Shown here one piece after another: positions 13,875 to 46,900 of a stretch of 64,000 nt of DNA. Location: the IMG/VR virus record IMGVR_UViG_3300035510_000283, positions 2,544 to 66,543 of that record. One strand, 5' to 3'. The notes under the pieces are model-generated. The model had not been told where the DNA came from, ran no database searches, and was given only the letters and a program-made list of their open reading frames with translations. Numbering within the stretch: the stretch's first letter is position 1; each line of letters starts with the position of its first letter. The DNA comes from a virus (Duplodnaviria; Caudoviricetes). Made by a program: the position numbers and the translations under genes.

Positions 13875-14162
13875 ATGAAAGTCAAATTACTCAAGCGTCT
13901 GCGCGAGAAAGCTCGCCGTGAAATGAAGCTTGTCTGTTGCCATGACGGCTTCAGCTATAAAGAATACGGAATTGTCTTCTTGGGCAGAGACCAAGATAGA
14001 CCAGCTAATGTTACTATACATACAGCAAACTTACGAGTTGCACTTCAATGGCTGTATAAGGAACGGGACAACCAGATAAGGCAGGTTTATCTGCAGAATT
14101 TACGTGAGAAACAAAGACAAGAAAGGCGCTCTGCCATAAATAGAATATTATCAAAATATTAA
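13875..14162 (+). CDS. Hypothetical basic protein
   Basis: Operon position; MKVKLLKRLR start. Confidence 0.55.
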   Translation: MKVKLLKRLREKARREMKLVCCHDGFSYKEYGIVFLGRDQDRPANVTIHTANLRVALQWLYKERDNQIRQVYLQNLREKQRQERRSAINRILSKY

Positions 14163-14185
14163 TCATTTACAAACAATAAACAATC

Positions 14186-14731
14186 ATGAAGAAAGTAAGT
14201 ATCGAAATTCCTAACAATAAGGAATTGGTTAAGGATGGCGACGTATATCGCTTGGTTGACAAAAGGACGGTCATGGAACGCATCAAGACGCTTGGCGATG
14301 CTGTGCATGAACTTGGTGAACAACACCCGTTGGTGGTAGAGTACAAGCAAGTCAAGAACATTGGCAGCATGAGTGCTGACGTGCTCGCTTATATGAAGCT
14401 GCGCATAATCGTTGCTGCGCTCAACGAAGGCTGGACTCCTAAATTCACCACCGACGAATATAGATACTATCCGTATTTCGTGCTATATACACAAGATGAG
14501 ATTGACCGCATGGATGAGGATGACAAATCACGCCTCGTCTTGTTCGGCGGCGTCTCGGCCGACGGCTCGTCTTGCGGTCGGGTCGCGACGTCCTCGGGTC
14601 ACGCTTGGACGGCCTCGTCCTCGGACTCTGGCTCGCGCCTTGCTTTCAAAACCCGCGACTTGGCTCTTTATGCCGGCAAGCAATTTAAAAAAATATATGC
14701 TGACTTTATGCTATTGAAAAAGGAGCAATGA
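14186..14731 (+). CDS. Remote DGR target protein (181 aa) carrying VR2
   Basis: Contains a 103-nt region matching TR at nearly all non-A positions, framed by LVLFGG...GSRLAF as in C-type-lectin-fold DGR targets. Confidence 0.85.
   Translation: MKKVSIEIPNNKELVKDGDVYRLVDKRTVMERIKTLGDAVHELGEQHPLVVEYKQVKNIGSMSADVLAYMKLRIIVAALNEGWTPKFTTDEYRYYPYFVLYTQDEIDRMDEDDKSRLVLFGGVSADGSSCGRVATSSGHAWTASSSDSGSRLAFKTRDLALYAGKQFKKIYADFMLLKKEQ
14537..14639 (+). repeat. DGR variable repeat VR2
   Basis: Hand alignment to TR over 103 nt gives 18 mismatches at TR adenines and 2 at non-A positions (CTC to CGG). Confidence 0.9.
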
Positions 14732-14934
14732 AACTGTTAATTACGCTATTATTAACCGCCGCTTTGTGCTCATGCACAAACGGCGGCGACGATATGAAAG
14801 AAATTAGTGTTGACATTGATACTCTTACGATACATGGTTACAAACATGAATTCATCCATTATTTTATTTATGATTGTAGTGGCATTTGTCACTCTCCCGA
14901 ATGTTGGTGTCACCAAGAAAACTGCCCGGATTAG
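14728..14934 (+). CDS. Small putative lipoprotein
   Basis: MKLLITLLLTAALCSC signal peptide with lipobox-like Cys; ATGA overlap with the VR2 gene. Confidence 0.6.
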   Translation: MKLLITLLLTAALCSCTNGGDDMKEISVDIDTLTIHGYKHEFIHYFIYDCSGICHSPECWCHQENCPD

Positions 14935-14936
14935 TT

Positions 14937-15194
14937 ATGGAAATTGAAAAATTTAATAAAGCTGTTGAGCTGCACATTCAAATCGACGAACTATGCAAGG
15001 CTTTGGATGAGATTAATGGTAGTATTCTTTCGTACTTCGGTGATAAATCTAGCATGGGGATATCCGGTCGCTATGTCATGTTTTTAGATACGCATCAGCC
15101 CATTCGCTATATTCTTGACCGGCACGATGCTGAAATACGTAAGGAACTCGAAGCAGAGATTGTTAGACTCAAAAACGAAATAGAACGTCTATGA
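14937..15194 (+). CDS. Hypothetical protein (last early gene)
   Basis: ATG at 14937 just after the lipoprotein stop. Confidence 0.5.
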   Translation: MEIEKFNKAVELHIQIDELCKALDEINGSILSYFGDKSSMGISGRYVMFLDTHQPIRYILDRHDAEIRKELEAEIVRLKNEIERL

Positions 15195-15310
15195 AACAAG
15201 ATGCTAACAGAATTTGGAGCTGCGTTCGTTTGGGGCGCGTATTTGACGTTCACAGCATAGCAAATAAAACCATAATCAAAACATAAAACCAAATCAGTCA
15301 CATCAATCAT

Positions 15311-15318
15311 TATCTTTG
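15311..15318 (+). promoter_or_regulatory. TAnnTTTG -7 promoter element directly before the 15323 ATG
   Basis: TATCTTTG ends 4 nt before the ATG, suggesting a near-leaderless mRNA. Confidence 0.6.
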
Positions 15319-15322
15319 TCAC

Positions 15323-15700
15323 ATGACCTCATTACTTAACAACTCCCGCAAGCCCGACATCTCGTTCAATCGCACAGGACGCATTGATGTTTCGGCACGT
15401 ATAGCTCACCAGCTCAATCTCAATGCCGGTGATGTTATTGACATTGCCACTCACGAAAGAGAATACTATCTACACGTGAAATACAGCGCTGATAGTGTTG
15501 TTGGCCGACATGAAGGCACGTGTTATCCCACAACTCGCCACGGCGGCTCGTTTCGCGCAAGTTCTGTGCGTTTGTGCAAAGCCATGATTGATGCGAGCGG
15601 CATAAACCCCGATGCGCAACAGTTGCGTTTGCCGTGCGGTGCACCGGAGACTATTAATGACAAGATATATATCCCAATTATAATACATAACGTGTTATGA
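15323..15700 (+). CDS. Hypothetical protein
   Basis: Own promoter; coupled (ATGA) to the large tail gene. Confidence 0.6.
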   Translation: MTSLLNNSRKPDISFNRTGRIDVSARIAHQLNLNAGDVIDIATHEREYYLHVKYSADSVVGRHEGTCYPTTRHGGSFRASSVRLCKAMIDASGINPDAQQLRLPCGAPETINDKIYIPIIIHNVL

Positions 15701-18405
15701 TACAAGAACTATCATACGATGGCTTCACCACTGCTCCGTCAGACTACGAATGCTCTGACGGGCAGTTGGCTGCGGCCATTAACCTTATCCCCGAAGATGG
15801 TGCGCTCCACCCGTTGCGCCCGGCAACGGCTCTGTTCACACTCAATACGAATGATAAGAAGGTGTTCCTACACAAGCCAACCGGATATGTGAACTATATT
15901 GTCATCTCCGGTGTAAATTCTAATGGCACTTACACGGTGTCGTGGATAAGCAGCACCGACTTGTCCACTCGCACGAACATTGTGACTCTGTCTGAGGTGA
16001 AAGACGTTGCCTCGGTTGGTAACACGTTGGTGTTTGCCACTGCAGAGGGGTTGAGATACGTTCTATGGAAAGACGGCGGGTACACATACCTTGGCGAAAA
16101 ACCGCCGTTCGTCTCGATTGCTTTTGGAGTTTACAAAGAAGGTACGCTTGATGATACAACAAGGTTTTCTGTGCATAGCATTGATGATGATTATGACGCG
16201 AAGACTGTGTGTGCATCGCTCACACAAAATGTGTATGGGCTTTTGCTTGCATCGGTTGCAGAAAATGTCACTTCTCAAGGACGTTTCTATCAACCATTCT
16301 TCGTACGCTATGCTTATCGCCTTTTCGATGGCTCATACTATTGGCATTCGTCACCGATATTGATGTTGCCAACAGTGCTGCCTCCGGTGGTGAAAGTTAG
16401 TTTTGACTCTATCAGCTCAATATCTGATTGGCAAAATGTTAAAGCTGGATGGTATAAAGGAGACCTCACTCTTGATGTGCCTTATTTTACTTTGGCATAT
16501 CGCATACTTACTGACGGAGCTGCAGACTTGAAAGATTGGAGCGATATAGTTGCTGGCATAGATGTATTTGTGTCTGCACCAATTTACACGTATGACCAAT
16601 CGGCAGATATAGGCAGCACTGCGTTCACAACAAAGGTGAGTATGGTGTCGCGGCTTGACCCTTCGTATGTTGAGGGTGGGCTCACCAGTAATGATGCTTT
16701 CCTTGGCCATTACGGAGATGCAGTTAACGGCACGTATAAGGATTACTACCTCTCTGATGAGGGAAGCAACGCAATGGTGAATGTTGTCAATATCCCACGT
16801 CATAGCGAGTTCGTTAGCAATGTCCGTGACTGCGCGAACTTTTATAAGGTTGCAGAGATAGATGTAAAAGATGTGGCTTCGATGTCAGAACTAAAGGATT
16901 TGCCTTTGCTGTTTACTGACATGACTTCACTGCGCGAACGAACGGCTATGACTGATGATTATCGTTCGCATTGCAAGCTAGTGCCTTCGCAGCTTTATGC
17001 GTTCAACTCGCGACTGAATATGGCTGACATAAAAATCTATCCTGCTGAGCCTTTCCCATTGCGCTCGCTTATGGCATGGAGTTATGACAATAGTAAAACG
17101 CTAACGTCTGGCGTTCGTATCACAGTCTGGTCGCGCATAAACGGCAAACGCTGCTATGCAATTCACGACGGTCTACAAACATATTCATCTGACCGTTGGT
17201 GCGACCCCGCGAATAATTTTCCGCGATATATTTTCTACCCGGACAGCTCGGCATATAAAATGGAGATATATGTGAGTTCCTCACAAATCTACACGATTGA
17301 TCTAAAGCAACACGACTTTTTAAATGGCGCTTACTTCTATAACCTTGGCGCTGGCATTAAGACTTCCAGTGTCAATGCAACCTCGGAGACAGGCGTGACT
17401 GATACTTCGGTTGAAATGCCCTCAAAGATATACACCTCAGAGGTTGGTAACCCATTCATGTTCCTTGCCTCAAACATAAACACCGTTGGCGATGGCACAA
17501 TCATCGGTCTGTCGTCAGCAGTGAGAGCACTCTCAGAAGGTCAGTTCGGTCAGTTCCCGCTGTATGCGTTTTCAACCGAAGGCGTGTGGGCATTGTCGGT
17601 TTCTTCAACCGGCACATATTCATCGGTGCAGCCTATCACTCGCGATGTCTGCATAAATGCTGCCGGCATAACACAGCTCGACGATACGGTTATGTTCCCC
17701 ACCAATCGCGGCCTCATGCAAGTGGCGGGCAGTTCCACGCTGTGCATAACTGATATGATAAGTTCGGCTTACCCATTCGATGTTACTGAGCTACCATATT
17801 TCGAGAAGCTTCACGAAATGATACATTCAGGTTCAGACACTTGTTTGCCGACTGTGCCGTTCACCGTCTTCATCAAAGATTGTAGGATGTTGTACGACTA
17901 CGTACACCAACGCATATATGTCTATAATCCAAATTACACGTATGCCTACGTTTTATCGCTCAAGTCAAAGGCTTGGGGCATGACCTTCTCGCGCATGCAA
18001 GATACGGTCAATTCTTACCCCGAGGCTTGCGCAATAATTGATGACGGCACGTCTCGTTACCTCGCAGATTACAGCGACGATAATGTTGACAACACCGACA
18101 AGGTAGGGTGCTTGTTCGCAACACGTCCCATAAAATTTGGTTCTGCAAATGTGCTCAAGACTATAAGCGGCATAATACAGCGAGGTTTCTTTGCCAAAGG
18201 CAACGTGACTACGGTGCTGTATGGCTCGCGTGATTGCCGCACGTGGCATCTCATCTGGTCATCGAAAGACCATTACCTGCGTGGCTTCCGTGGCACACCC
18301 TACAAGTATTTTCGCATAGCAGGTACGGCAACACTCTCCGCCAATGAAAGCATCTTTGGCGCAAGTGTTGACTTTGAACAGCGACTGACAAATCAAATTA
18401 GATAA
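15697..18405 (+). CDS. Tail nozzle / stabilization-like structural protein (902 aa)
   Basis: Large beta-rich protein with IYTSEVGNPF..GQFGQFPLYAFSTEGVWAL motif, reminiscent of podovirus tail hub proteins. Confidence 0.55.
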   Translation: MIQELSYDGFTTAPSDYECSDGQLAAAINLIPEDGALHPLRPATALFTLNTNDKKVFLHKPTGYVNYIVISGVNSNGTYTVSWISSTDLSTRTNIVTLSEVKDVASVGNTLVFATAEGLRYVLWKDGGYTYLGEKPPFVSIAFGVYKEGTLDDTTRFSVHSIDDDYDAKTVCASLTQNVYGLLLASVAENVTSQGRFYQPFFVRYAYRLFDGSYYWHSSPILMLPTVLPPVVKVSFDSISSISDWQNVKAGWYKGDLTLDVPYFTLAYRILTDGAADLKDWSDIVAGIDVFVSAPIYTYDQSADIGSTAFTTKVSMVSRLDPSYVEGGLTSNDAFLGHYGDAVNGTYKDYYLSDEGSNAMVNVVNIPRHSEFVSNVRDCANFYKVAEIDVKDVASMSELKDLPLLFTDMTSLRERTAMTDDYRSHCKLVPSQLYAFNSRLNMADIKIYPAEPFPLRSLMAWSYDNSKTLTSGVRITVWSRINGKRCYAIHDGLQTYSSDRWCDPANNFPRYIFYPDSSAYKMEIYVSSSQIYTIDLKQHDFLNGAYFYNLGAGIKTSSVNATSETGVTDTSVEMPSKIYTSEVGNPFMFLASNINTVGDGTIIGLSSAVRALSEGQFGQFPLYAFSTEGVWALSVSSTGTYSSVQPITRDVCINAAGITQLDDTVMFPTNRGLMQVAGSSTLCITDMISSAYPFDVTELPYFEKLHEMIHSGSDTCLPTVPFTVFIKDCRMLYDYVHQRIYVYNPNYTYAYVLSLKSKAWGMTFSRMQDTVNSYPEACAIIDDGTSRYLADYSDDNVDNTDKVGCLFATRPIKFGSANVLKTISGIIQRGFFAKGNVTTVLYGSRDCRTWHLIWSSKDHYLRGFRGTPYKYFRIAGTATLSANESIFGASVDFEQRLTNQIR

Positions 18406-22546: not shown

Positions 22547-23092
22547 TTATTCAAAGTAAAAATCATGCTTGCCGTTGCCAATATCCTGCTGACGAATGAT
22601 TGTCTCAATGGGGAAGATACCCGGTTGAGTTTTGGATAGCTTGCGAGCGTCGTCAAGTTGATTTTTCAACGAATAGGAATTAGTCACGAATTTGTAGCTA
22701 TTGTCGTTCAAACGAAAATGAACAACGTAGCGGCCATCGCCGTGAGCAGTTTTTATATTCGTCTCAAAATCAACTACAAATATAGTTAAATTTACAATTT
22801 CAAACAATCTTTTTACGGGAAAATCAAAGATTTTCTTTCCGTCTTTCGTCGTGGTGCGTTTCTTTATGCCGTATGTTGAAAATGACATATCTGTGATAGT
22901 AGTGAATAAGGTTGCACAGTTTGCCCACTTGCACCAGCCATAATAGCTGTCGTTGACTTCCTTCTTACGTTTTTCTGTCTTAGCTGATTTGTGCTTGCGG
23001 GCAAATGATTGTTTAATTCGCTTTCTTAGTTTAGTATATCTTGGCTGAAAGCAATAACCAAGAAAATCTATATGGTTAGCGCATTTTGGCAT
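22547..23092 (-). CDS. DGR reverse transcriptase part 3 (motif 7, thumb and a ~110-aa C-terminal extension)
   Basis: IDFLGY motif, then KLRKRIK..SYYGWCKWAN thumb-like region. Confidence 0.8.
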   Translation of the reverse strand: MPKCANHIDFLGYCFQPRYTKLRKRIKQSFARKHKSAKTEKRKKEVNDSYYGWCKWANCATLFTTITDMSFSTYGIKKRTTTKDGKKIFDFPVKRLFEIVNLTIFVVDFETNIKTAHGDGRYVVHFRLNDNSYKFVTNSYSLKNQLDDARKLSKTQPGIFPIETIIRQQDIGNGKHDFYFE

Positions 23093-23402
23093 GGCTGCGG
23101 CGGCGTTTGCGATGCGGTCGGTAGCGTTGAGCTGTGCTACCTATCGGAGCTAAAACAAGGCTATGTTTCACCGTGACACCGGCTCTCTCGCAGAGCATGA
23201 CAAATTCTGCGGCTTGACGGCGAGCCTCGGCTTTGCTCTTGGCTAGACCTACGCAGTCGTCGGCATAGCGAAAGTAGGGATGCACCGCTACGATGTGCTT
23301 CATTGCATGGTCAATACTCGCCACTGCATAGTTGCCGAAAAGCTGACTTGTGAAGCCGCCGATTGATAAACCGTGTCCGCTCTCGTTCATGTTCGATTTC
23401 AT
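23076..23402 (-). CDS. DGR reverse transcriptase part 2 (motifs 4-6, catalytic YADD)
   Basis: GLSIGGFTSQLFGN (DGR-type SQ motif) and YFRYADD at 23256-23267. Confidence 0.85.
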   Translation of the reverse strand: MKSNMNESGHGLSIGGFTSQLFGNYAVASIDHAMKHIVAVHPYFRYADDCVGLAKSKAEARRQAAEFVMLCERAGVTVKHSLVLAPIGSTAQRYRPHRKRRRSHAKMR

Positions 23403-24075
23403 CTAACGTTTGTTTGTCGGTGTGATAAAACAATGCCGTTTTCTCTATTAGCTCAATGAATTGTTCATCTTTGAACTTGTTGCGCAGTTGGTTGAGTATA
23501 AGCTCGTGAGGGATGCTCTGATAAAACTTCTTGCAGTCTGATTGCCACCGCCAAGTGTATTGCGGTTGCAGTCGCAATGTCTTTTTGAAACGCTGTGCGC
23601 CAAAGTGCAAACCTTTGCCTTTGATGCACGAAAATGTCATATAGATTAGTGACTTGCAGATTATCGGGGCGATTACTTGCACTACGGCGTGGTCGATGAT
23701 GTGCCACGGTGCAAACGGCTTTATTACTATTCTGCGCACTTTGCCCGCGTCTGATTTTCTATCATCTTCGATGTAGTCAACCTCGGGCAGATTGCCGGTA
23801 AGCAGCATGAGCTGTAATGCTCTAAGATTATTGGTTAAGTTATTTCCATATTTCTTTATTAATTTATTCTTTGACTTCTTTTTCTTGGCTTCGTGGAACG
23901 CTTCGCGCAGATTATCCATTGCGCAGATGCGCTCCATGATGTGGCCTTCACGTTTTGGTCGGCGGTTGCCGTTTGCTATAATATTCTTCTCGTAACTTAG
24001 GATGCGGCTAGCGAGCAAATTGTCTATCTGCTCGCCGCTCATGTCGCTGTAATCATAGGTGTCTAGGCGTTGCAT
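23311..24075 (-). CDS. DGR reverse transcriptase part 1 (motifs 1-3)
   Basis: NLREAFHEAKK, KVRRI..IIDHAVVQ..SCIKGKGLH and SDCKKFYQSIPH (first catalytic Asp). Confidence 0.85.
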   Translation of the reverse strand: MQRLDTYDYSDMSGEQIDNLLASRILSYEKNIIANGNRRPKREGHIMERICAMDNLREAFHEAKKKKSKNKLIKKYGNNLTNNLRALQLMLLTGNLPEVDYIEDDRKSDAGKVRRIVIKPFAPWHIIDHAVVQVIAPIICKSLIYMTFSCIKGKGLHFGAQRFKKTLRLQPQYTWRWQSDCKKFYQSIPHELILNQLRNKFKDEQFIELIEKTALFYHTDKQTLDEIEHERERTRFINRRLHKSAFRQLCSGEY

Positions 24076-24499
24076 CTTCTAGCTAAGAGAGTTAAGGGTT
24101 GACGATTTTTAGGATTTCTGAAGGGCAGGTATTTAGGGATAGAAGATTATGCTTTGTGTGTGGTGGTTGAGATTGTTGTGACTATCTATTTTTCGACTGA
24201 ACGTTGTTTTTGTTTTTTTTTGTGCTACGCCAATGCTTCTCTATTTCAGCTTTCCGATATATATATGCTTGCTAAAGCTGAACGCCTCAAACTTTCGAGA
24301 GTTAACCTACTCGCATGACTTCCGACACTCTGCTGCTGCAAGCTGTTTTTGAGTGCCTTTTTCGCAATTATTTTTCGACTTCGCTTTCTTGCTCGTTGCG
24401 GAGCTTTTGAGCTACGCTGCGTAGTTGATTATAGGCGCAGGGTCGGGGTGCAGGGAGTTTGTTTATCGTAATGCCTTGCGGCATACGTTTCTTTAGATT

Positions 24500-24608
24500 G
24501 GCGCGAGCCATAGTTCGAGTTCGAGTTCGTCCAAGCGTTATTCGAGTTCGTCGCGACGAGACCGCAATTCGAGCCGTTGTTCGAGTTGCCGCCGAACAAG
24601 ACGAGGCT
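24500..24608 (-). ncRNA. DGR template repeat (TR)
   Basis: Rich in AAC/AAT codons (23 adenines in the 103-nt core); matches two VRs except at adenines; upstream of the RT. Confidence 0.93.
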
Positions 24609-24978: not shown

Positions 24979-26256
24979 TTAGGCTATATCCTTGCCATTA
25001 ACAAAGTTTAACGTGCCATAATATGCAAGGCGCGAGCCATAGTACGAGTTCGAGTACGGCCAAGCGCCAATCGAGAGCGTCGCGACGAGACCGCAACCCG
25101 AGCCGCGGGACGAGTAGCCGCCGAACAAGACGACATTGCCACCATCGGTATTAGCACTCCAGCAAGCGTCACACCACGGCGTGGATGCGCTGCCACCGCT
25201 AGCGGTCTTAGGTGCAACGTCAAAGTATTCGCCCAAATGCAGCTCTGTGATATAACTAGACGACCATGTAGTTGCGCGTGATAGGGCACGATAGTCACCC
25301 GTGGGGCCGTTAGTGCGTTCATCAGAACTAAGCAAGCGGTTGCCCGTGTAGATGTAAAAATAGCTGCCAATACCATAAATACCTTGCGCAAATTCCCACT
25401 GCAAGCCATAGGGGTCTTCGATGCCGCCCATTGACACGCGGCATGAATTGGTTGTTGCGTCGGTTATATCAATCTTGCCCCATGCGTCGCCGAGTTCTGC
25501 CGTTGCGCCATTATACCATTCGCTAGTGTTAATAGATATTCCGCTATTGCCCGTTACACCACGTCCAAGACATGACTGTATATCGGGGTTGCCATACTCG
25601 CTAAGTCCGAGCATGACGATTAGCTGTTGAAATGCGTAGTCGCGTAAGCCAAAATCTTTGCCGTTTACTCGAGCGTAATTCCAAAATTGCTCGAGTGTTT
25701 TAGAATGTGCGCGAAGGACACCGCTACGTGATGTCAATGCTCCGTCAGACGTAACCGAGGCTTTATATGCGCCATAGCAGTTGTGCAAGCCACCGTTGCA
25801 CGTGCCAATGTAATGACCGGATATTGGGAGTTGAGACATCCATAATATTGGTATTCCTGACTCGTTTTGCACCAAATAGTAAATTCGCGGCGCAATCCAC
25901 ATGATGTGCCCCTTGCTCTCGTCCAGCTCAGTGCCGTCGGCATACACCGTCGAATCCGTCTTTGACAACTTCGCAGCATCACCCGAGTTCGTCAACAAAT
26001 ATCGCCCCGAGTTCGATTTCCACTCCTCGTACATCAATGTATTGCCGATTACTCCCCACGATAACGTGTCGTAACCTTGCATCAACGGCACTCCCCACGC
26101 CACTTGCCGCAGGTAGTAACCATACTGATTTATCACTTTCGCGAGGTTGTCGAGGCTGATGCGCCGCAACGCCCCGTCTATCTCTATCAATACGCTGTTC
26201 GTCAACAACGCCGTACTAACACTCGTCAGCGTCGTTAGTTCTGTTGTATTTGCCAT
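24979..26256 (-). CDS. DGR target tail / receptor-binding protein (C-type lectin-like C-terminus)
   Basis: GGIEDPYGLQWEF and VVLFGG..GSRLAY flank VR1; last gene of the tail operon. Confidence 0.85.
   Translation of the reverse strand: MANTTELTTLTSVSTALLTNSVLIEIDGALRRISLDNLAKVINQYGYYLRQVAWGVPLMQGYDTLSWGVIGNTLMYEEWKSNSGRYLLTNSGDAAKLSKTDSTVYADGTELDESKGHIMWIAPRIYYLVQNESGIPILWMSQLPISGHYIGTCNGGLHNCYGAYKASVTSDGALTSRSGVLRAHSKTLEQFWNYARVNGKDFGLRDYAFQQLIVMLGLSEYGNPDIQSCLGRGVTGNSGISINTSEWYNGATAELGDAWGKIDITDATTNSCRVSMGGIEDPYGLQWEFAQGIYGIGSYFYIYTGNRLLSSDERTNGPTGDYRALSRATTWSSSYITELHLGEYFDVAPKTASGGSASTPWCDACWSANTDGGNVVLFGGYSSRGSGCGLVATLSIGAWPYSNSYYGSRLAYYGTLNFVNGKDIA
25029..25131 (-). repeat. DGR variable repeat VR1
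   Basis: Hand alignment to TR over 103 nt gives 15 mismatches, all at TR adenines. Confidence 0.95.
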
Positions 26257-26268
26257 AATCTGGTATGT

Positions 26269-28269
26269 TTAAATGAATGTATCTGCTATTTCTCTAATTA
26301 ACCATTTTGTTTTGGACTCTCCCTCTTGGTGGTAACCAATTAGCTCGAATTGCTTGCCGGAGTTTATCCCGGCTCCGCTTATCGTTTTAGGAGAATTAAA
26401 GTCGCTTATATAAACATTGCTATCTGCAGCTGTTAGAGTTAAGTCGTAAATTGAATCTTCCCTAGTTACCACCGGATTATAAATGCGAATTGTGCGCGCT
26501 GTTCCTTCCGGTAAATTTTCAAGTGTAATTGCGGATATGGAAATGTACATCGAGCAATCCGATGAACTATATAAACCGGCACCAAATTTCAGATAAAGTG
26601 CCCTGGCAACAAGGTCACCGGTTACTTTTGCGTTTGTAATAGTCACGCTATCAATCGTGCCGTTGGTGATTTCGGCGCTATCAATCGTGCCCTTCGATAT
26701 TGATGCGTCGGTCACGGCAATGTTTTTAAACGTGCCGACATTGCACCTAACGTTGCCGTCGCGAGCATAGAATATCTCGTTGCCGTCAGCGTCTGTCATA
26801 TAGACATTCTCAACACCGAGGTTCTTTATCAGCGCATACGATGCCAGCAATATCTTCGTGGCCACGAAGTCAATCTTGTCGCCGACTTTCCAATACTTGT
26901 TGTTCGCTGCCAGCGTCAGTGGATTGCTGCCAACATCGCTCTTGACGTGGTTTTCCGTGCAATAGTAATACTGCTCCTTGTACAGCACAACGTCAATGTA
27001 GGTGTCGTCTTCGCCGCCGCTCTCAAAGCTGAATGTGTCGTCAAGCGACTCCCAGTCGAGAGGCCCTCGAAGTGTCGGCCCTCGACTTCCGTCATACACA
27101 ACCGGAATGTCGATTATTTGCATGGTTGAACTGTTTTCGCCGTCCCAATAAATTAAAGAGAAGCTGACAGAGGTGTAGGAGTTATCTCCTGCAGCTATTG
27201 TCATCGTCGTGCCCCACGCTACGTATGCGTTTCTTGCCTTGCCTACAACTTGCACAGCATAACAAGGAACACCGGGTGCAAATGCAGAATACATTGTGCT
27301 CGTAATATCTTCAGCTGCTGCTTCTCCAACTTTCTTGTACACCTTGACACTAACGGTCTGCGCTGATGTGGTAGGGTTAATAGATGCTTTGTCTGCAACC
27401 ATATAAATCATCACGCCATCGTCGCCTTTTGCTCCGTCGGTGATAAATGGAATGGTAACGGTATCAATATCTTTATCAACGCCGTTCACTCGCTGTGCCA
27501 AATAGAAAGTAAGATATCCCATTTCTGCAGATATGTCTACACTCGTAGTAAATGCCGTGCCTGCAATTTTTGTGGCATAGTGTACAAATAGTCCGTTGGC
27601 AACAGGGCCGGCTGTTATTAGAGAGTTTGTATAGTCAGTTTCCGTGTTGCTGCCAATTCGCTTCATAACTTTCACACTGACGGTTGACTCTGACAAGTTG
27701 CCGTCAGCGTCAATATGCACAGCTGTGACACTAGGCACAAGACGATACACAACCGCATCGTCGCCCTTATCTCCTGTATCGCCTTTATCTCCGGTGTCAC
27801 CCTTGTCCCCCTTGTCGCCGGTGTCACCTTTTTCTCCCGTATCTCCTTTTTCACCGTCGCTAACAACGGGCACTTCGATTGTCTGCATTTCGGTGAGAGA
27901 CATGCCTGATACGGAATACAGCGTAAATGTTATTGATGAAATATCGCTTGGGTTGCCTGCAGCAATAGTTGCCGAGCTGCCAATAGTTGCAGATTTGCTA
28001 GGCATATCTGTGTAGTTAACCATATACTTGACGGTATATCCAGACGATGCAGCCATTACATAGCTGATTAGCGAGTCGGTTATATCTTCCTGCTCGCCCG
28101 AGCCAACGCGCTTATACACCTTGACGCTAACCGTTTGGTCTGACGTAGTGGGATTGATTGATGCCTTGTCTGCAACCATGTGTACAAACACAGCATCTTC
28201 ACCGTTACTGCCGTCCTCGCCACTCTCGGGGTAGGGGATTAGCACATCAAAAGCTGAAACTTTACTCAT
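26269..28269 (-). CDS. Tail fibre-like protein with collagen-like repeats and repeated beta modules
   Basis: G-x-K-G-D-T collagen tract and two near-identical MVADKASINPTTS.QTVSVKVYK modules plus a third diverged one. Confidence 0.75.
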   Translation of the reverse strand: MSKVSAFDVLIPYPESGEDGSNGEDAVFVHMVADKASINPTTSDQTVSVKVYKRVGSGEQEDITDSLISYVMAASSGYTVKYMVNYTDMPSKSATIGSSATIAAGNPSDISSITFTLYSVSGMSLTEMQTIEVPVVSDGEKGDTGEKGDTGDKGDKGDTGDKGDTGDKGDDAVVYRLVPSVTAVHIDADGNLSESTVSVKVMKRIGSNTETDYTNSLITAGPVANGLFVHYATKIAGTAFTTSVDISAEMGYLTFYLAQRVNGVDKDIDTVTIPFITDGAKGDDGVMIYMVADKASINPTTSAQTVSVKVYKKVGEAAAEDITSTMYSAFAPGVPCYAVQVVGKARNAYVAWGTTMTIAAGDNSYTSVSFSLIYWDGENSSTMQIIDIPVVYDGSRGPTLRGPLDWESLDDTFSFESGGEDDTYIDVVLYKEQYYYCTENHVKSDVGSNPLTLAANNKYWKVGDKIDFVATKILLASYALIKNLGVENVYMTDADGNEIFYARDGNVRCNVGTFKNIAVTDASISKGTIDSAEITNGTIDSVTITNAKVTGDLVARALYLKFGAGLYSSSDCSMYISISAITLENLPEGTARTIRIYNPVVTREDSIYDLTLTAADSNVYISDFNSPKTISGAGINSGKQFELIGYHQEGESKTKWLIREIADTFI

Positions 28270-28281
28270 AACTTCTCTTTT

Positions 28282-29409
28282 TTAACCGTTACCTGTTGCT
28301 TCAATATACACTGTTACTTGGCCGTACTCTTGCACGGTTGCACCCGACACATTAAATTTGCCGTTGGAAACACTTCCTGATACGATGGTTGAGCCATTGT
28401 AGTCTAAAATCGCATAGCTGAAAGTCCAGTTTGTTTGCGTAGTTCTGCTTGCGCGAGCCAATACTTGTGGGGTGTAGGTAACTGTTTCGGTTGCACGGAT
28501 AAGATTTGAGGCTGTGCTGCGCCCCATTTCAATGTAATATGGGTCGTGTGTATCGCACACCTCAATGCCTTTCGTGTATGTATTGCCGTCGAGTGTGGCA
28601 ACGGCATAAAATTGCTCGGTGCTGTCAATAGCTGCTTCCGTAAGAGTAATGGTTTTACCATCGTTGGATACAGTTACGCCTACGACACCTTTCACTAAAT
28701 CTCCTTTCGTTACAATGTCTATCAAATTGCCGGCTGAAGCTTTCTTCCATGACCATGCTCCGGCTTGTATGGATGCGCCATTTAGCTGCAAATCGGCAGT
28801 TATCTCGAGCGTTTCACTGTCGCTGTCAATAACAGTGTCCGGGTGTCCTCCTTCGTTGACGCACGACAACACTATGTCATACACGTTGCCAACTGTCTCG
28901 CGTATAGCGATGTCACCGTGACACGTGGTGCTGACACCGTTAATCTCTCCCTTAAAGTATATTGCAACATCTTGGTTGTAGCTGTTGATAGAGTTTTCGC
29001 CGGCAAGGTTGCCTATGATTTTCAGTGCGGGGAATGTTTGCCCGTTCACTGTATATGTTAGCTTGTTGCCGTTGTCGTCAAGATTGGTGAAATAGTTTTT
29101 GTACTTTTCCTTTACATTGCCCGTATCAGGGTCAACTATTAGGGCTTCACTGCTGTCGGGGTTGTTGAAATACCACCTCTCCGTTCCTTCGGTCGGCACA
29201 ACATACTTGCCGGCATTAGAGCTGTAGCAGCATGGGTACAACATGATTTGTGTATTCGTATCTGTGTAGTCAGGACTACATACTTTTGTTGTGGGGTTGT
29301 AGTATTGTGTTGTTCCAACACCGGCACCCATGACGAAAGCCATGCGCGGCACGATGGTATCACCGTCAACCACACATTCAAGTGTGTCTATTGCTGATAT
29401 TTGTGACAT
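28282..29409 (-). CDS. Tail structural protein
   Basis: Beta-rich Thr/Ser/Gly composition within the tail operon. Confidence 0.55.
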   Translation of the reverse strand: MSQISAIDTLECVVDGDTIVPRMAFVMGAGVGTTQYYNPTTKVCSPDYTDTNTQIMLYPCCYSSNAGKYVVPTEGTERWYFNNPDSSEALIVDPDTGNVKEKYKNYFTNLDDNGNKLTYTVNGQTFPALKIIGNLAGENSINSYNQDVAIYFKGEINGVSTTCHGDIAIRETVGNVYDIVLSCVNEGGHPDTVIDSDSETLEITADLQLNGASIQAGAWSWKKASAGNLIDIVTKGDLVKGVVGVTVSNDGKTITLTEAAIDSTEQFYAVATLDGNTYTKGIEVCDTHDPYYIEMGRSTASNLIRATETVTYTPQVLARASRTTQTNWTFSYAILDYNGSTIVSGSVSNGKFNVSGATVQEYGQVTVYIEATGNG

Positions 29410-40970: not shown

Positions 40971-43900
40971 CTATTGATTGTTGTTGCGTTTCTCCCACTC
41001 GCTGACGATTTTTATCAGCTCCTTTTGAGCCTCGCGAGCCTTCTGCTTATCTTTGTAGCTGTTAAGCATTCTTACTGCGGCGCTTTTGTAGTTGACAATA
41101 TCGGCGGCGTTGGCGGCTGCAAGTTCCGGAGTTGGAGCACTTGTCCATGATTTTATCATCTTGTCAAGCTTGCCGTGTAAGCCTTGGTAAAGCATGTAGC
41201 GTTGACCTTCGGGTGTGCGGAATAACTCTTGAGCCTTTGCTGCGCGGTTTATCATGTCGTTGCTGTCAATCTCGCGCAGACGTTGGCCGAATTGCTTATA
41301 CTCCTCTTCGTACTTGTCAAAGCTATCACTTATTGCACTGTCAGTGAGCTTGGAGATGCGCACCTTGGCTTCTTTGTTGAAGCGGGTGTTGAAGCGGTCA
41401 AGTTCCGATGCCCATTTATCCTTGCTCATTGCCAGGAGTGTCGTGAAGTTGGCGCGTCGTGCTTTGTAAATGGCGTAGCGCTCTGCCAGCTCCTCCGGTG
41501 ACTTACGTTGTGCCTCGCGTGCGTCCATGCCAAGCTCGTCAAAGTACACTTGGTCAATCTGAGACTGCGGGCATGATAGTATACGCATCCCAAGTATTGC
41601 AAGGTCTCTCATGCTCTTGTCGTCAGCGCCGAAATAGTCCAAGCCTGCCACAATCCAGTCCTCAAACACTTGCGGGTTAATACCTAGGGTGTATGCTGCA
41701 AGTGTCTGCACTCCGGTGTGTGCGGCTTCATAATACTTGCGGTTGACAATCGACGTTATCTCGTCTTCTAGCAGACTTGCTGCCGGAGACATGTCGGTGT
41801 CAAAATACGGACGTGTGCCTTGTATTGCACTGTATATAACATCGGGTATTGTGCCGCCTCCGGTGAAACCTTCAAGCGGGCCGAGAAAGCCTCGTTTCAA
41901 AGCATCTTCCGCTTGCTCCTTTTTCTTGTCTTTGTCCTTGCCGAATATCGCATACCACGCACCGGTAAGGCCGTATGACCAAAGTGCCGGCAGTATAAAG
42001 TCAAATGTGGCAGACTTCACAACATTGCGGCCAAGGTTGCGGTTGAACAGCCGGTTGGCTCGCCTTTCGGCTTGTTCTTCTGTCAAACCCATGCGCACAC
42101 CTTTCTTAATCTCATAAGCAATTTGCTCTTCCCTATTGGTTAGGCTGTTGTAAAGCTCGCGCTTGCTTTGTATTGATTGGCGAAGGTAGCTCATCGGGGA
42201 GTTGCGGAATGCAGTGAAACATGCTGTCATGTAGCTGCGGTCATTTTGCATCAGCGACAGATACGGCAGCTCGCTTGATTGTTGCGAGAGGTTGAATATC
42301 TGCTCTGCGTCCATAATGGCTTGCTTGTGCGCTTGCTCCGGGGTAAAGCCGTCTTTGATATATTCCTTATATTTGCAGGTATAGACAGCCTCAGAACCCA
42401 TTGACACTGTCAGTGCATCAATGAATGCGTTGGCCGACATGCCCCCACGTTGCAGTCGTTGCATGAACTCAGTGTTAGTCCATTTCCAATCGTGCTCTGT
42501 AGAACGCAATACCTCATTGCCCGCCTGTCTTGATTGCCAGCGGCGTTGGAATGACGGCATATTTTCCATTGCCCACTTCCAACACTCGCGTTGACGCTTT
42601 GGCGCTGTGTTATAGAGCAATCGTGCAACGTTAGCCTCGGCTAGAAATGCCGGGTATGAAAGCAGCTGTTTGAGCGCAGTGTTGAAGCGGAATGCAATAC
42701 ATGATGCCGTTACCAACTTTGTTGTGTTCACCAATGCCTTGTCAAATTCATTGACTTTAGGCTTGTATGCACCGCCAACCAACATTGAGAGGTTGTAGAA
42801 TTTCGCCCACAACTTCTTGCCGCTGCCGTATACAGTTGACATGTTCTTGATTTGGTTGCGGAAGCGTTTGTATGACAGCAATGTGCCAAGGTCGCGGCGA
42901 TACTCGGCAAATGCTGCCCAGTTCTCCATTTCGCGAACGTGGTCAAGTGCCACCGATATAGCATCCGAACCGGGTATGTCAAGCATGCTCGTGTTGAACT
43001 TGCGACGTATGATTGCACCGGTCATAATCTTTGGCAACTCGCGTCCTTCGGGGTCGAGACCTGCTTCTATCTGTGTTTGCTCTTGACGTGACTCTCCGAG
43101 TATCTTCAACGGGAAGTAGTTCTCTATCTCGTCCATCGGAGCACCAAACATGCGCATGTGTACCTCGTTGTACTTGTGTCGCAGTGCGGGTAGCAATTCT
43201 CCCTGTAGCCAATCTGCAGCTGCTTTAAGCCTCGGGTCTAATTTATCCTCAACGTTGATTATGTTTTCATCGGTGATGCCCATGGCACGGAGTTTTACAC
43301 GTCCGTCTTCCATTTTGTTGACCATGTACATATACATGAGGTTACCTTGCGTCACATTGTGGTTGCGCATTTCTCCGCCGTCCCACCAGCTGATGTGGCC
43401 GGCTTTCTTGTTGCTGAGGTCATAGAGGTCACTCCAGCGTGATTTGCGCTTGCCAAGTATCTGTGCGGCTTTGGCGTTGAGAATACCTTCGGTTTTTTGA
43501 GTCTCTGTCCACTCTTTGTCGCGGCACTCTTGCCAACCGTCAACGAAGCGTCTTTTCAGATACCCCTCCCCGTTAATGCTCTTTGAACCAAGCACTCTCA
43601 TCATCTGCTCGAATGTAGCTGTCGGTGCAAAGAAAATACGTGTCAAAATACCATTAGATAGCACTGTGCGCACTGACCTCTTCTGTCCGAACTCATTATA
43701 CGGTCTGCCGCTCATATCTGAGTTAGCGCAGTGGTGAATGTCGTTGATGCGCTGTTTCTCTCGCTGACGATACTCATTGAGGCGGTCTATTGACTCACTC
43801 ATCTCCGTGCCGATCAGCGAGGCAAGGTTGCGCAGCGCTTCTGCACGCTCAATCTTGGCCTTGCGAATTGACTCGTAGAGAGCTGCCTTCTGTTCAATGT

Positions 43901-46900
43901 AAGCTCGACGTGCTTCTCCGTTCATGTTCTTATCCCACTTGGCGGTAAGGTCGCCGATGGCGTTACGAATAGCGGTTTCATCGCTCTCGCGTGCACGCAC
44001 ATCGTTGCGATACTTCTGTGCAAGCACTAAGCCTCTGTGTTCGGCTGCTGCCATGATAGCAACATTGTCGTCATCACCGGCAAGGCGCTCCTCAAGTGTT
44101 GAGATACGCTCTGCGATTTCACCGTCTTCTTTGACGTTCATGTAGTCTTTGAACGCACGAACCATAACCTGACCTTGCGGGTCAAGTTTGCCGGCAACTG
44201 CAACACCCTTGGCATTGACCTTGTCGCCGCGCACTTTCAGCATTTTGTCAAAGAAGCGTTCTGACAAGCGCAACTGGTTGTCAACAAACAAGTCCATAAG
44301 CGAGTTAACGGCATCTGCAAAGTCTTTGTCGGTTTGTGCGTGGTGCTGCACTTTCTGTTTGTCGGTGTAGTTGTGACCTAAACCTTTTTGCAGTATTGCT
44401 GTCAGTCGTTTCACTTCCTCGCGTCCCTCGGGGCAAAAGTCTGCACTCTCCATGAGCACGTTGGCAACGTTGCGCAGTGACTTGACGGTGTTGTAGTCAA
44501 GTTCTTGCTGTGCTGTCATAGCCTTGCGGATGTCACTGAGGGTATTGCCGATTGCTTGAAGTGCTGCATCTTTAACGGCAATATCGTCTTTGTGTCGCTC
44601 TGAGAGCATGGTGGCAATCTTCAAGGTTTTCTCCTGCATGTCCATGCTGCGCATTTCCTCCTTGTCGCGCTCGTTCTGCTCGTCGGCATCGCGGAACTCC
44701 AACCCTTGCTCCGGGTCAAAGTCACGCCCGCTCTCGCGTGCCCAGTCATATTCAACAGGTGTCATATCAGGATGCTCACTGTTGAACTTGTCTATGACTT
44801 GACGTGCTTCGGCATCGCCGATTATACGGTTAGCCTTGAATGCTCCGGCAACATACCAACCCACACGGTCTGCCTGGCTCTTTCCCTTGTCAGCATTTGT
44901 GGCTTTGATGTAGTAACCATCTTCGGGAATGCGGTCGGGTAGGTCGCGGTCGGGATTGCGCTCTGCTTCGGCATTGTAGTCAACGTCAGCTGATACCTCG
45001 CCCTCAACCCACACAAAGCTGTTGTCGCGAAGGTTCTTTTCTTTACCCTTGCCGATTTGTCGCATTGTAGGCAGAGAGCCGGCATGCCAACCGGGGCGCA
45101 GTGAGAATGTTGATACGCTGCCCGAACCGTTGATGCCCAAGTTCCAATACTTGCGGTTTTCACCGTCAAAGCGGCGTTGTGCTTTTTCGGTCTGCTCTAT
45201 GACCATCCAACGCAGTCCGTTGTCTGAGGCATAGTTGATAGCGTCAACGTTTGGATATTTTGTTGACGTTGCCATGTCGGCATGTTCGGCGTTGAACTGC
45301 TCGCGTGTCATCACCTCTCCGGTTGACGGATTGACAAGGTATGTGCCCGGGGCTTTGTCTCGGAGCATTGACAAGTCGGGGCTGTCTGCATCGTACCATC
45401 TGCCTAATTCAGTGGGAACGGAGCTGTCAATAAACAGCGGATATAGCTTGCCGTCTTTGCCAAGACGCATGAGCTTGTAAACCTTGATTGTCCTTTTCGG
45501 CGCTTCTTTCTCACGCGGACGATACTCCGGCACTGAATTTTTTTCTTCGCTTGTTGCCTGAGTATCAGAATTATTTTGTACCTTTGTGCCATCAAAGTCT
45601 AATTCTTTATCGGTGTGTGCGCCTTCGGGCGTGTTAGTATCACTTTGTGCTCTGCGAGACGTACCGGAAGATTGGACTTTTTTGTTTGTATAGAAGTCAT
45701 TGAATTCTTCAACACCTTTCTTCCTTTCGGTCACAACGGTATATCTAACGCCATCTTTAACCAATGTATATTCATACAAGTTCGCTCCACGTCGTTCCTT
45801 TTCAACGCGTTCCCCGTTGGTTAGTACTTCGGGGATAAGTTTCAAGTCTTCTGCTCTAATAACTCCCACGCCTGTACCATAGTGACGGTAAATGCTGTGT
45901 TTTGTCCCAGCTCCACCTTCGCTGCCTTGTCGCATGATTACAGTGTGCTTGCCGTCTTCGCGCTCAACAGTTAGACGTGTATTGTCCTTGTCGCCGCTGA
46001 ATGCGTCAACAACGGCACGTTGATTGTCGTCAAGCTCTGCATCTTTCAATGTTTCTTTGATTTCACGCATACGCTTCGGCACACGGCTACCCATTTCAGA
46101 TACGCCGCCAAGCATACTTTCAAGCAAGATTTGGTCTTCGCGTGCAACATCCTCCGTCTCGCTTGCTAGACTACTGCGGCGCTCCTCATCGGACATGCTC
46201 ATACGCTTTTCAACGTTGCGGCTCTCAACCTCACCACCCAATCTGCGATACTGATCAAATGCGCTTGGTATGTTCTCCAAATCTGCCACAAGACCGTCAA
46301 TGTCACCATAGCCATACCGCTTGGCAAGTCGCTGCAATACGTCTGAATACGCGTCTCTTATCCTGTAATGTTCATATCCGGGCACTTTCATATTCATGCT
46401 CTTATCCAATGCGGCTGCTAGACTTCTGCTATCAGAAATCACAGTATCGTCTTCAAGCAAGTGTCCGTCAGTAAGGAAGTTTAATCTGCGTATAACGTCT
46501 GCTCGTTGGTCCTTAAATTCTCTGGCACTACCGCCACGCGCAAAACCTTCTTGTGCCTGAATTGCATGTTGCAATTCGTGAGCTAAAACATCTTCAGCTT
46601 TGTGGTTGAGTACAATGATATTTGCCTCTGGATCATAATATGCAAGACTTCCGCGCAAGTTATCTGTTCCAATCTTTACTTCCATGTTGCGTAATTCTGG
46701 ATAGGCTTCAAATAGCTCGTCATCGTCAACAAAGTCGTCTAAGTGTTTAGGCTGGTCAGACAATTCTGCTTCCTTTGTTTCTAGTTCGGCAATTCGATGA
46801 GCTTTTTCCGGGTCCATACCTCCGGCAATATATATATCTGCCATATCGGTATCCTCGGTAACCTCGCCGCCACTTTTTTCAAATATTTCACTACCTTTCC

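What the first reader, a model, noticed from the sequence alone, without database searches (positions are those of the whole stretch)
14186..14731. One TR drives a second, remote, opposite-strand target in the early region
Seen: VR2 (14537-14639, + strand) matches TR with 18 adenine-position mismatches and only 2 others. It lies about 10 kb from TR, inside the early replication operon rather than the tail genes. All ten AAY codons of TR are changed, mostly to small residues (S, A, G, D), while VR1 favours Y, R and L. Known: multi-target DGRs exist, but the role of non-structural targets is largely unexplained. Inference: a hypervariable 181-aa intracellular or early binder (anti-defence, host takeover or exclusion) diversified from the same template as the receptor-binding protein.
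Basis: partly seen in the sequence, partly recalled or inferred. Interest (0 to 1): 0.75.

Follow-up and report, generated by a model that had tools for sequence, protein, structure and literature searches.

The report
Remote second DGR target in phage
A gut Bacteroidales phage uses one mutagenic retroelement template to diversify its tail fibre and also a small soluble protein encoded among its replication genes; that protein belongs to a very large, unnamed family that is hit in the same way in many gut phages, and its function is unknown.

Summary
VR2 (14532-14639, +) lies in a 181-aa ORF. It matches the template repeat (24500-24607, -) with 18 of 20 mismatches at template adenines (p ~5e-14), and all ten AAY codons are changed. 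A 99.4%-identical phage from another metagenome has the same TR but 22 substitutions inside VR2 and none in the surrounding ~4 kb, so VR2 does vary between strains.

The protein is phrog_11581, with no Pfam family and no match to a solved fold. It is soluble and sits in the replication/recombination module in 80 of 80 related loci. In 22 of 24 RT-carrying IMG/VR phage records, and in LoVEphage and phage BT-TP2, the family member is a remote second target of that phage's own TR, alongside a tail protein. Profile similarity to the tail targets covers only the 40 VR-coded residues. A C-type lectin fold is not supported, but this test was inconclusive.

The phenomenon is already noted briefly: Nature 2025 (PMC12629997) reports distal second VRs, and LoVEphage is listed with two. 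The definition of the target family appears to be new. The anti-defence role is untested. VR2 seems to change less often than VR1. The RT is in three reading frames here and in LoVEphage. Earlier notes of this scan on the same window cover the RT and the missing avd.

The parts
14186..14731 (+). Target gene 2: a 181-aa soluble protein of family phrog_11581, with VR2 coding residues ~116-151
   Evidence: ORF. phrog_11581 match at E 9.7e-45. No Pfam, NCBIfam or PADLOC hit. 4728 clusters at 90% identity. No signal peptide or TM segment.
14532..14639 (+). VR2, the remote variable repeat
   Evidence: 18 of 20 mismatches to the TR are at TR adenines. There are 22 substitutions against a 99.4%-identical phage, and none in the flanks.
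14630..14643 (+). IMH-like 3' end of VR2 (GGCTCGCGCC then TTGC). VR1 has the identical sequence; the TR has AATC instead.
   Evidence: Read directly from the alignment. The same VR-only 3' extension is seen in LoVEphage and BT-TP2.
24500..24607 (-). Template repeat (TR): intergenic, upstream of the RT, with ten AAY codons
   Evidence: Identical in four other contigs of this phage lineage.
25029..25133 (-). VR1, at the C-terminus of the tail protein
   Evidence: Three alleles occur among near-identical phages that share the same TR.
24979..26256 (-). Target gene 1: a 425-aa tail protein (phrog_5302). Its LoVEphage-type homologues are annotated as tail collar fibre or Mtd_N-like.
22547..24075 (-). 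DGR reverse transcriptase, colinear with an intact 431-aa RT but read in three frames (23311-24075, 23076-23402, 22547-23092)
   Evidence: An independent contig has the same layout with no indels. LoVEphage and IMG/VR record G003 also share the layout.

Best explanation
Shown: the window is a complete ~66.5-kb temperate phage of Bacteroidales with one diversity-generating retroelement (DGR). TR RNA is copied by the adenine-error-prone RT, and the cDNA overwrites any repeat that carries the matching 3' recognition end. Two such repeats exist. VR1 is in the tail fibre. VR2 lies 9.9 kb away on the other strand, at the C-terminal third of a 181-aa protein in the early replication/recombination operon. 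VR2 is a real target and has been diversified in nature. The protein belongs to a very large, unnamed family (phrog_11581) that is repeatedly the remote second target of the resident DGR in many Bacteroidales phages. Its conserved scaffold is unrelated to the tail targets outside the 40 VR-coded residues.

Inferred: the protein is a soluble protein made early, inside the cell. A conserved body presents a Tyr/Ser/Asn/Asp-rich variable surface that binds a variable ligand. The most likely ligand is a host component that differs between strains, so the role would be counter-defence or host takeover. A conserved face would contact a constant partner. VR2 is rewritten less often than VR1.
For: The TR/VR2 adenine bias is p 5e-14. 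The record holds only three copies of the repeat.

The window and contig L004 are 99.4% identical over 20.5 kb with identical TRs. They differ by 22 substitutions in 88 nt of VR2 and by none in 13875-18134 otherwise (binomial p 3e-33).

In six LoVEphage-species records, 23 of 23 variable VR2 positions lie at TR adenines and the TR is invariant. Among the 120 best hits, one scaffold group is 99.9% identical in the scaffold yet has 21 members with 21 different VR peptides. 99% of residues at the diversified positions are ones reachable from AAY codons.

At family level, in 22 of 24 RT-positive IMG/VR records the family member's C-terminus matches a TR next to the RT with nearly all mismatches at A (for example 16/16, 20/20, 21/21), and it also matches a VR1. 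The same holds in LoVEphage and in the unrelated 45-kb phage BT-TP2, which has a different VR type (10 of 10 mismatches at A).

For context, neighbours in 80 loci are a DnaD-like initiator (52 loci, usually the next gene), a DnaC-like loader (36), RecT, YqaJ, a metallo-beta-lactamase and a DEAD helicase. In the window the neighbours are a replisome organiser, DnaC-like, YopX and DUF551.

The protein is soluble: maximum Kyte-Doolittle (19-residue window) 1.3, no signal peptide, family median pI 5.0. hhalign between the family and the tail targets aligns only the 40 VR columns (probability 97%).
Against: No experiment or homology gives a function. There is no hit in Pfam, NCBIfam, PADLOC, PDB sequences or PDB folds. 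Early expression and cytoplasmic location are inferred only from gene position and the lack of export signals; virion packaging is not excluded.

AUSP0021 (from B. thetaiotaomicron) and AUSP0022 (from P. dorei) carry the same VR2 but different VR1. This does not fit VR2 tracking the host closely.

The RT is in three frames, so present-day activity in this phage is not proven. Two complete phages carry a family member without any RT or TR.
Confidence: 0.6

Rival explanations
1. The 181-aa protein is a virion-associated protein, such as a second receptor-binding or adhesin subunit, or an ejected protein, that happens to be encoded outside the tail module. It would be diversified together with the tail fibre to recognise surface ligands.
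For: It shares the same 40-residue variable cassette as the tail fibre. Two-target phage DGRs with both targets at the particle surface are described (tentaclins, PMC10743442). No proteomics excludes this.
Against: The gene is in the replication/recombination module, on the early strand, in 80 of 80 loci, most often directly upstream of the replication initiator. In BT-TP2 it is the second gene after the cro-like regulator. It shows no similarity to any structural PHROG. VR1 and VR2 do not change together.
Confidence: 0.15
2. In this phage the DGR is dead because the RT is a frameshifted pseudogene. VR2 would then be a fossil of past diversification rather than something the TR drives today.
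For: The RT is colinear with an intact 431-aa RT but needs two +1 frame changes. The VR2 allele P0001 is identical in four contigs from four samples.
Against: An independently assembled strain shows the identical three-frame layout with no indels, and all three frames stay open. RT part 1 shows 12 synonymous against 7 non-synonymous codon changes. LoVEphage and record G003 have the same layout at the same junctions. LoVEphage is inducible, and its six records have six VR1 and five VR2 alleles with one invariant TR. Phages that share the frameshifts differ at VR1 and VR2.
Confidence: 0.15
3. VR2 is a collateral, non-adaptive target: a copy of the VR cassette that landed in an unrelated early gene and is tolerated there.
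For: Outside the VR the two targets are unrelated. VR2 changes less often than VR1.
Against: The arrangement recurs in 22 of 24 RT-positive phages, with at least two different VR sequence types and both strand orientations. The AAY codons are always in frame, and the scaffold is strongly conserved: 27 near-invariant positions across 135 sequences. The family has thousands of clusters.
Confidence: 0.05

Closest known systems
LoVEphage-type DGRs with a distal second variable repeat (Dahlman et al., Nature 2025, PMC12629997; LoVEphage MW660583, Van Espen et al. 2021, PMC8525569)
   Same: The architecture is the same: tail-fibre VR1, then TR, then RT, with no avd listed, plus a second VR 10-15 kb away on the opposite strand in a homologous early-region gene (QVQ57199, 44% identity). 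The RT is in three frames at the same junctions.
   Different: This is a different phage: no megablast match to any record of the phage collection searched, and a 66.5-kb genome. The paper only notes that four prophage species have a distal VR near counter-defence genes. In the papers I could search, it does not name or characterise the target family.
Bordetella phage BPP-1 DGR (Mtd, TR, Brt, Avd), the founding DGR
   Same: Adenine-specific TR-to-VR information transfer. [quoted passage not shown] The VR has a GC-rich IMH-like end that differs from the TR end. There is a tail-fibre target, and LoVEphage-type homologues are annotated Mtd_N-like.
   Different: There is a second, remote target in a non-structural module. 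No avd ORF is seen. The RT is in three frames. No significant hairpin follows either VR. The second target has no recognisable C-type lectin fold.
Remote-target DGRs of cellular genomes (Legionella, Treponema, cyanobacteria; Wu et al. 2018, PMC5758913; PMC7517822)
   Same: One TR acts in trans on VRs many kilobases from the RT.
   Different: In those cases the multiple targets are usually paralogues of one surface or signalling protein family. Here the two targets share only the 40-residue cassette.
Tentaclins: two-target phage DGRs (PMC10743442)
   Same: A gut phage DGR whose single TR diversifies two proteins of different topology.
   Different: In tentaclins the VR is in an N-terminal C-lectin domain, and both genes lie inside the DGR cassette and are proposed to be receptor-binding proteins. 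Here the VR is in the C-terminal third, the gene is remote, and it lies in the early operon.

Membership tests
Diversity-generating retroelement (DGR) variable repeat / target | A TR/VR repeat pair whose mismatches fall almost only at template adenines | tested here: met
   18 of 20 mismatches fall at 23 A positions in 107 nt, p 5e-14.
Diversity-generating retroelement (DGR) variable repeat / target | A DGR-type reverse transcriptase next to the TR | tested here: inconclusive
   An RT homologous to an intact phage DGR-cassette RT lies 425 nt downstream of the TR and carries SIGGFTSQ and YADD. It is read in three frames, and its Pfam RVT_1 scores are below the cut-off.
Diversity-generating retroelement (DGR) variable repeat / target | The VR lies inside an ORF towards its 3' end, with the template AAY codons in frame | tested here: met
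   VR2 codes residues ~116-151 of 181. All ten AAY codons are in frame and all are substituted.
Diversity-generating retroelement (DGR) variable repeat / target | A VR-specific 3' end (IMH) that differs from the TR end (IMH*) | tested here: met
   Both VRs have GGCTCGCGCC+TTGC, while the TR has GGCTCGCGCC+AATC. The same is true in LoVEphage and BT-TP2. Function in homing was not tested.
Diversity-generating retroelement (DGR) variable repeat / target | The VR varies between otherwise identical genomes while the TR is constant | tested here: met
Diversity-generating retroelement (DGR) variable repeat / target | An accessory variability determinant (Avd) gene in the cassette | tested here: inconclusive
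   There is no Avd-sized ORF between VR1 and the RT. The 138-aa ORF after the RT has no NCBIfam hit. LoVEphage is listed as Avd NA in Supplementary Table 3 of PMC12629997. No dedicated Avd profile test was run.
C-type lectin-fold DGR variable proteins (Mtd, TvpA, TaqVP; Pfam FGE-sulfatase, DUF1566) | A predicted or detected C-type lectin fold that carries the VR | tested here: inconclusive
   The AF2 model has pLDDT 82, with the scaffold above 90 but the VR residues 121-149 below 50. Foldseek against PDB gives best E 0.58. VIA-align against 48,161 chains gives best Z 4.2-4.7, rmsd 4.0-4.2 A, 62 aligned residues, to a phage portal. No lectin appears in the lists.
C-type lectin-fold DGR variable proteins (Mtd, TvpA, TaqVP; Pfam FGE-sulfatase, DUF1566) | A sequence match to the Pfam families typical of DGR targets | tested here: not met
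   There are no Pfam hits even at E<=10 for this protein or three relatives, and none in 135 family members at E<=0.001.
phrog_11581 (phage protein family of unknown function) | A significant full-length match to the family profile | tested here: met
   E 9.7e-45, residues 23-179 against profile positions 37-195 of 200.
Tentaclins | [quoted passage not shown] | tested here: not met
   The VR is in the C-terminal third, and the gene is 9.9 kb from the cassette.
Virion structural protein | Encoded in the structural module, or detected in particles | not testable with these tools
   By gene position the protein is in the early module in 80 of 80 loci. Particle proteomics is not available.

The most novel reading that the evidence does not exclude
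The phrog_11581 proteins are a new scaffold for DGR diversification that is not recognisably a C-type lectin. They would work inside the infected cell as a pre-diversified, antibody-like binder that gut Bacteroidales phages use against strain-variable host defence or takeover targets. This would be a second, intracellular arm of DGR-driven adaptation, running in parallel with receptor switching in thousands of phages.
Probability: 0.25. Interest if true: 0.85.

Novelty: new member of a known kind. Interest (0 to 1): 0.58.

Why it matters
Almost everything known about phage DGRs concerns receptor-binding proteins. The largest survey states that it could not see remote targets (PMC8144416). This work shows that the remote target in this window is not an oddity. 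It is one member of a very large protein family: 2899 clusters at 50% identity at E<=0.001, found in prophages of Bacteroides, Phocaeicola, Alistipes, Prevotella, Muribaculaceae and others. That family is systematically coupled to the resident DGR while sitting among replication genes. This gives a concrete and experimentally tractable handle on what DGRs do beyond host-range switching, because LoVEphage, BI-TP1, PV4-TP1 and BT-TP2 are cultured. It also offers a compact 20-kDa scaffold that tolerates massive variation.

Tried and rejected
Fold assignment. I made two AF2 models, from 55- and 135-sequence alignments. Searching them with Foldseek against PDB and with VIA-align wide gave nothing above Z 4.7. 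BFVD gave only uncharacterised gut-phage proteins. The ESM Atlas gave only hypothetical viral clusters.

Sequence and profile searches. These found no informative hit: Pfam at E<=10, NCBIfam, PADLOC, and PDB sequences searched with the profiles.

Fused forms. Longer family members of 313-362 aa have N-terminal extensions with no Pfam match.

Other negative results.
- An exact 35-nt flank search in IMG/VR for more VR2 alleles of this lineage found nothing.
- A hairpin or cruciform after the VRs is not significant (z -0.4 and +0.6).
- I considered an Avd-substitute idea and rejected it. The family is acidic (median pI 5.0), whereas, from my own knowledge, Avd is a basic protein. The family also occurs in phages without an RT.
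- Opposite-strand placement is not a rule: by my reading, about 14 records have the same strand and 8 the opposite strand.
- The 10-kb flanks of the IMG/VR loci were too short to see most TRs. I solved this by fetching the RT loci separately.

Full report
OBSERVATION. A BLASTN of 14500-14680 against the window finds two further copies. One is at 24500-24607 (minus strand, 81.5% identity, E 1e-25) and the other at 25025-25133 (minus strand, 79.8%). The whole 66,543-nt virus record from which the window comes (CheckV 100% complete) holds only these three copies. The copy at 24500-24607 is intergenic and rich in AAY codons, and it lies 425 nt upstream of a reverse-transcriptase gene, so it is the template repeat (TR). 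The copy at 25029-25133 is the C-terminus of a 425-aa tail protein (phrog_5302) and is VR1. VR2 (14532-14639, plus strand) differs from the TR at 20 of 107 positions. Eighteen of these are template adenines, and the other two are adjacent (14580-14581). The chance probability of this bias is 5e-14. The ten AAY codons of the TR are in frame in ORF 14186-14731, and all ten are changed. Both VRs end in GGCTCGCGCC followed by TTGC, where the TR has AATC. This is an IMH/IMH*-like distinction, and it recurs in LoVEphage and BT-TP2.

IS VR2 REALLY DIVERSIFIED? The nearest database protein (P0001, 93% identical) is identical to the window protein outside the VR. It is encoded on a JGI metagenome contig that is 99.4% identical to the window over 20.5 kb. 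The two share the TR exactly. They differ by 22 substitutions within 14540-14627 and by none in the rest of 13875-18134 (binomial p 3e-33). All 12 changed codons in the gene are non-synonymous and lie in the VR. Among the 120 best hits, groups with 95-100% identical scaffolds have as many VR peptides as members; in one group, 21 members with 99.9% identical scaffolds have 21 different VRs and 70% VR identity. At the diversified positions of 82 alleles, 99% of residues are those reachable from AAY codons. Tyr, Ser, Asn, Asp and His dominate. The small-residue bias of the window allele is therefore anecdotal.

WHAT THE PROTEIN IS. It matches phrog_11581, a family of unknown function (E 9.7e-45). 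It has no Pfam, NCBIfam or PADLOC match, and neither do 135 diverse relatives in Pfam. The family is very large: 4728 clusters at 90% identity and 2899 clusters at 50% identity at E<=0.001. It occurs in phages and prophages across Bacteroidales, including Bacteroides, Phocaeicola, Alistipes, Prevotella, Muribaculaceae and Porphyromonadaceae. The protein is soluble, with no signal peptide or membrane segment, and the family median pI is 5.0.

AlphaFold2 with a 135-sequence alignment gives a confident scaffold (mean pLDDT 82, 100 residues above 90). It consists of an N-terminal beta-hairpin, four helices, a short beta region and two C-terminal helices. The VR-coded residues 121-149 stay below pLDDT 50. 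Neither Foldseek (best E 0.58) nor an exhaustive VIA-align scan of 48,161 chains (best Z 4.2-4.7, 62 residues aligned, rmsd 4.0-4.2 A, a phage portal) finds a related solved fold. A profile-profile comparison with the C-terminal domains of 20 tail-protein VR1 targets aligns only the 40 VR-coded columns (probability 97%) and nothing on either side. The variable cassette is therefore shared, but the two scaffolds are unrelated at this level of sensitivity. A C-type lectin fold is neither shown nor excluded.

CONTEXT. In the window the gene follows RecT, an exonuclease-ATPase, HU, the replisome organiser, a DnaC-like loader, DUF551 and YopX, all on the plus strand. The lysis and structural genes lie on the minus strand from 18.5 kb onward. 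In 80 IMG/VR loci that carry a relative, the commonest neighbours are a DnaD-like replication initiator (52 loci, most often the next gene), a DnaC-like loader (36), RecT, a YqaJ exonuclease, a metallo-beta-lactamase and a DEAD-box helicase. In phage BT-TP2 the gene directly follows the cro-like regulator.

GENERALITY. LoVEphage (MW660583) has a 44%-identical homologue in its early region. Its C-terminus matches LoVEphage's own TR and the VR1 in the tail collar fibre 15 kb away. Across six LoVEphage-species records, including induced and isolated phages, the TR is invariant and VR1 has six alleles. VR2 has five alleles, and all 23 of its variable positions lie at TR adenines. BT-TP2 is an unrelated 45-kb phage with a different VR sequence type, and it shows the same pattern (10 of 10 mismatches at A). 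Of 26 IMG/VR records that are at least 90% complete and carry a family member, 18 have an RT hit. In 22 of 24 RT-positive records, the family member matches a TR beside the RT with nearly all mismatches at A, and also matches a VR1. Both strand arrangements occur. Two complete phages have a family member but no RT or TR. Even so, their VRs differ from the TR of a related phage only at adenines (12/12 and 15/16).

RELATIVE RATES. In the two informative pairs VR2 is the same but VR1 differs. The first pair is contigs L099 and L100 of the window lineage. The second pair is LoVEphage AUSP0021 from B. thetaiotaomicron and AUSP0022 from P. dorei. VR2 thus seems to change less often than VR1. In that one case it does not follow the host species. 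This is a caution for the idea that VR2 tracks the host.

IS THE DGR ALIVE? The RT is colinear with the intact 431-aa RT of BT-TP2 but is read in frames 1, 2 and 3 in turn. The independent contig has no indel in this region, all three frames stay open, and part 1 shows 12 synonymous against 7 non-synonymous codon changes. LoVEphage and IMG/VR record G003 have the same three-frame layout, whereas other relatives have a single-frame RT. Phages that share the layout differ at both VRs, so the element most likely still works, either by recoding or as separate pieces. I did not test this. Earlier notes of this scan on the same window (e1-5911857 and e1-5911859) made the same RT and no-avd observations.

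MECHANISM AND RIVALS. Shown: one TR and two bona fide VRs, a remote target in a soluble early-module protein, and a family-wide coupling to DGRs. Inferred: an intracellular binder with a conserved body and a variable Tyr/Ser-rich surface, most likely acting on strain-variable host components. The rivals are three: a virion-associated second binder (0.15), a DGR that is now dead in this phage (0.15), and a collateral target (0.05).

WHAT IS KNOWN. DGR remote targets are known in cellular genomes. Dahlman et al. [quoted passage not shown] Roux et al. 2021 state that their survey could not detect remote targets. Tentaclins are a different two-target case. The window is therefore a new member of a described kind. 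In the papers I could search, nothing defines the target family, its size, its constant position beside the replication genes, or the restriction of similarity with the tail target to the VR cassette.

Noticed in passing
window 22547-24075 (-); L003 (LoVEphage) ~400-2100; record G003 28051-28585: The DGR RT is read in three successive frames at the same two junctions in this phage, in an independently assembled strain, in LoVEphage and in IMG/VR record G003. Other relatives have a single-frame RT of 435-500 aa. Part 1 shows 12 synonymous against 7 non-synonymous changes between strains. This suggests recoding or a split enzyme rather than decay.
   Followed up: partly
L009 10343-10448 and L010 10343-10448 (records G001, G002): Two CheckV-complete phages carry a family member but have no RT or TR anywhere in the record. 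Their VRs still differ from the TR of a related phage (G003) only at adenines (12/12 and 15/16). These are orphan VRs. Possible causes are loss of the DGR, exchange of the early module between phages, or diversification in trans by a co-resident prophage.
   Followed up: partly
window 14728-14934 (+): A 68-aa ORF overlaps the stop codon of the VR2 gene (ATGA). It starts with a lipoprotein-type signal (LLLTAALCSC) and has a Cys/His-rich tail. It is not among the 18 largest neighbour families, so it is not a widely conserved neighbour of the family.
   Followed up: no
window 15697-18405 (+): A 902-aa protein of phrog_32516 (unknown function, no Pfam hit) lies about 1 kb downstream of the VR2 gene. 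A homologous protein of about 900 aa lies within six genes downstream in 10 of the loci. BT-TP2 has a 967-aa protein at about the same distance, which I did not compare.
   Followed up: no
window 40971-58946 (-): A single 5991-aa ORF takes up about 28% of the window, in the late region.
   Followed up: no
window 24467-24487 (-): About 12 nt after the TR there is an 8-9-bp hairpin with a GCAA loop (the 101-nt stretch containing it folds with z -2.05). It may be part of the TR-RNA priming structure. No comparable significant hairpin follows VR1 or VR2.
   Followed up: no
L215 (OY731444) VR1; window 14580-14581; L004 VR2: Non-adenine changes occur at low frequency in the VRs. Examples are a 3-nt deletion in one LoVEphage VR1, adjacent T>G and C>G changes in the window VR2, and three T>G changes in the sister allele.
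   Followed up: no
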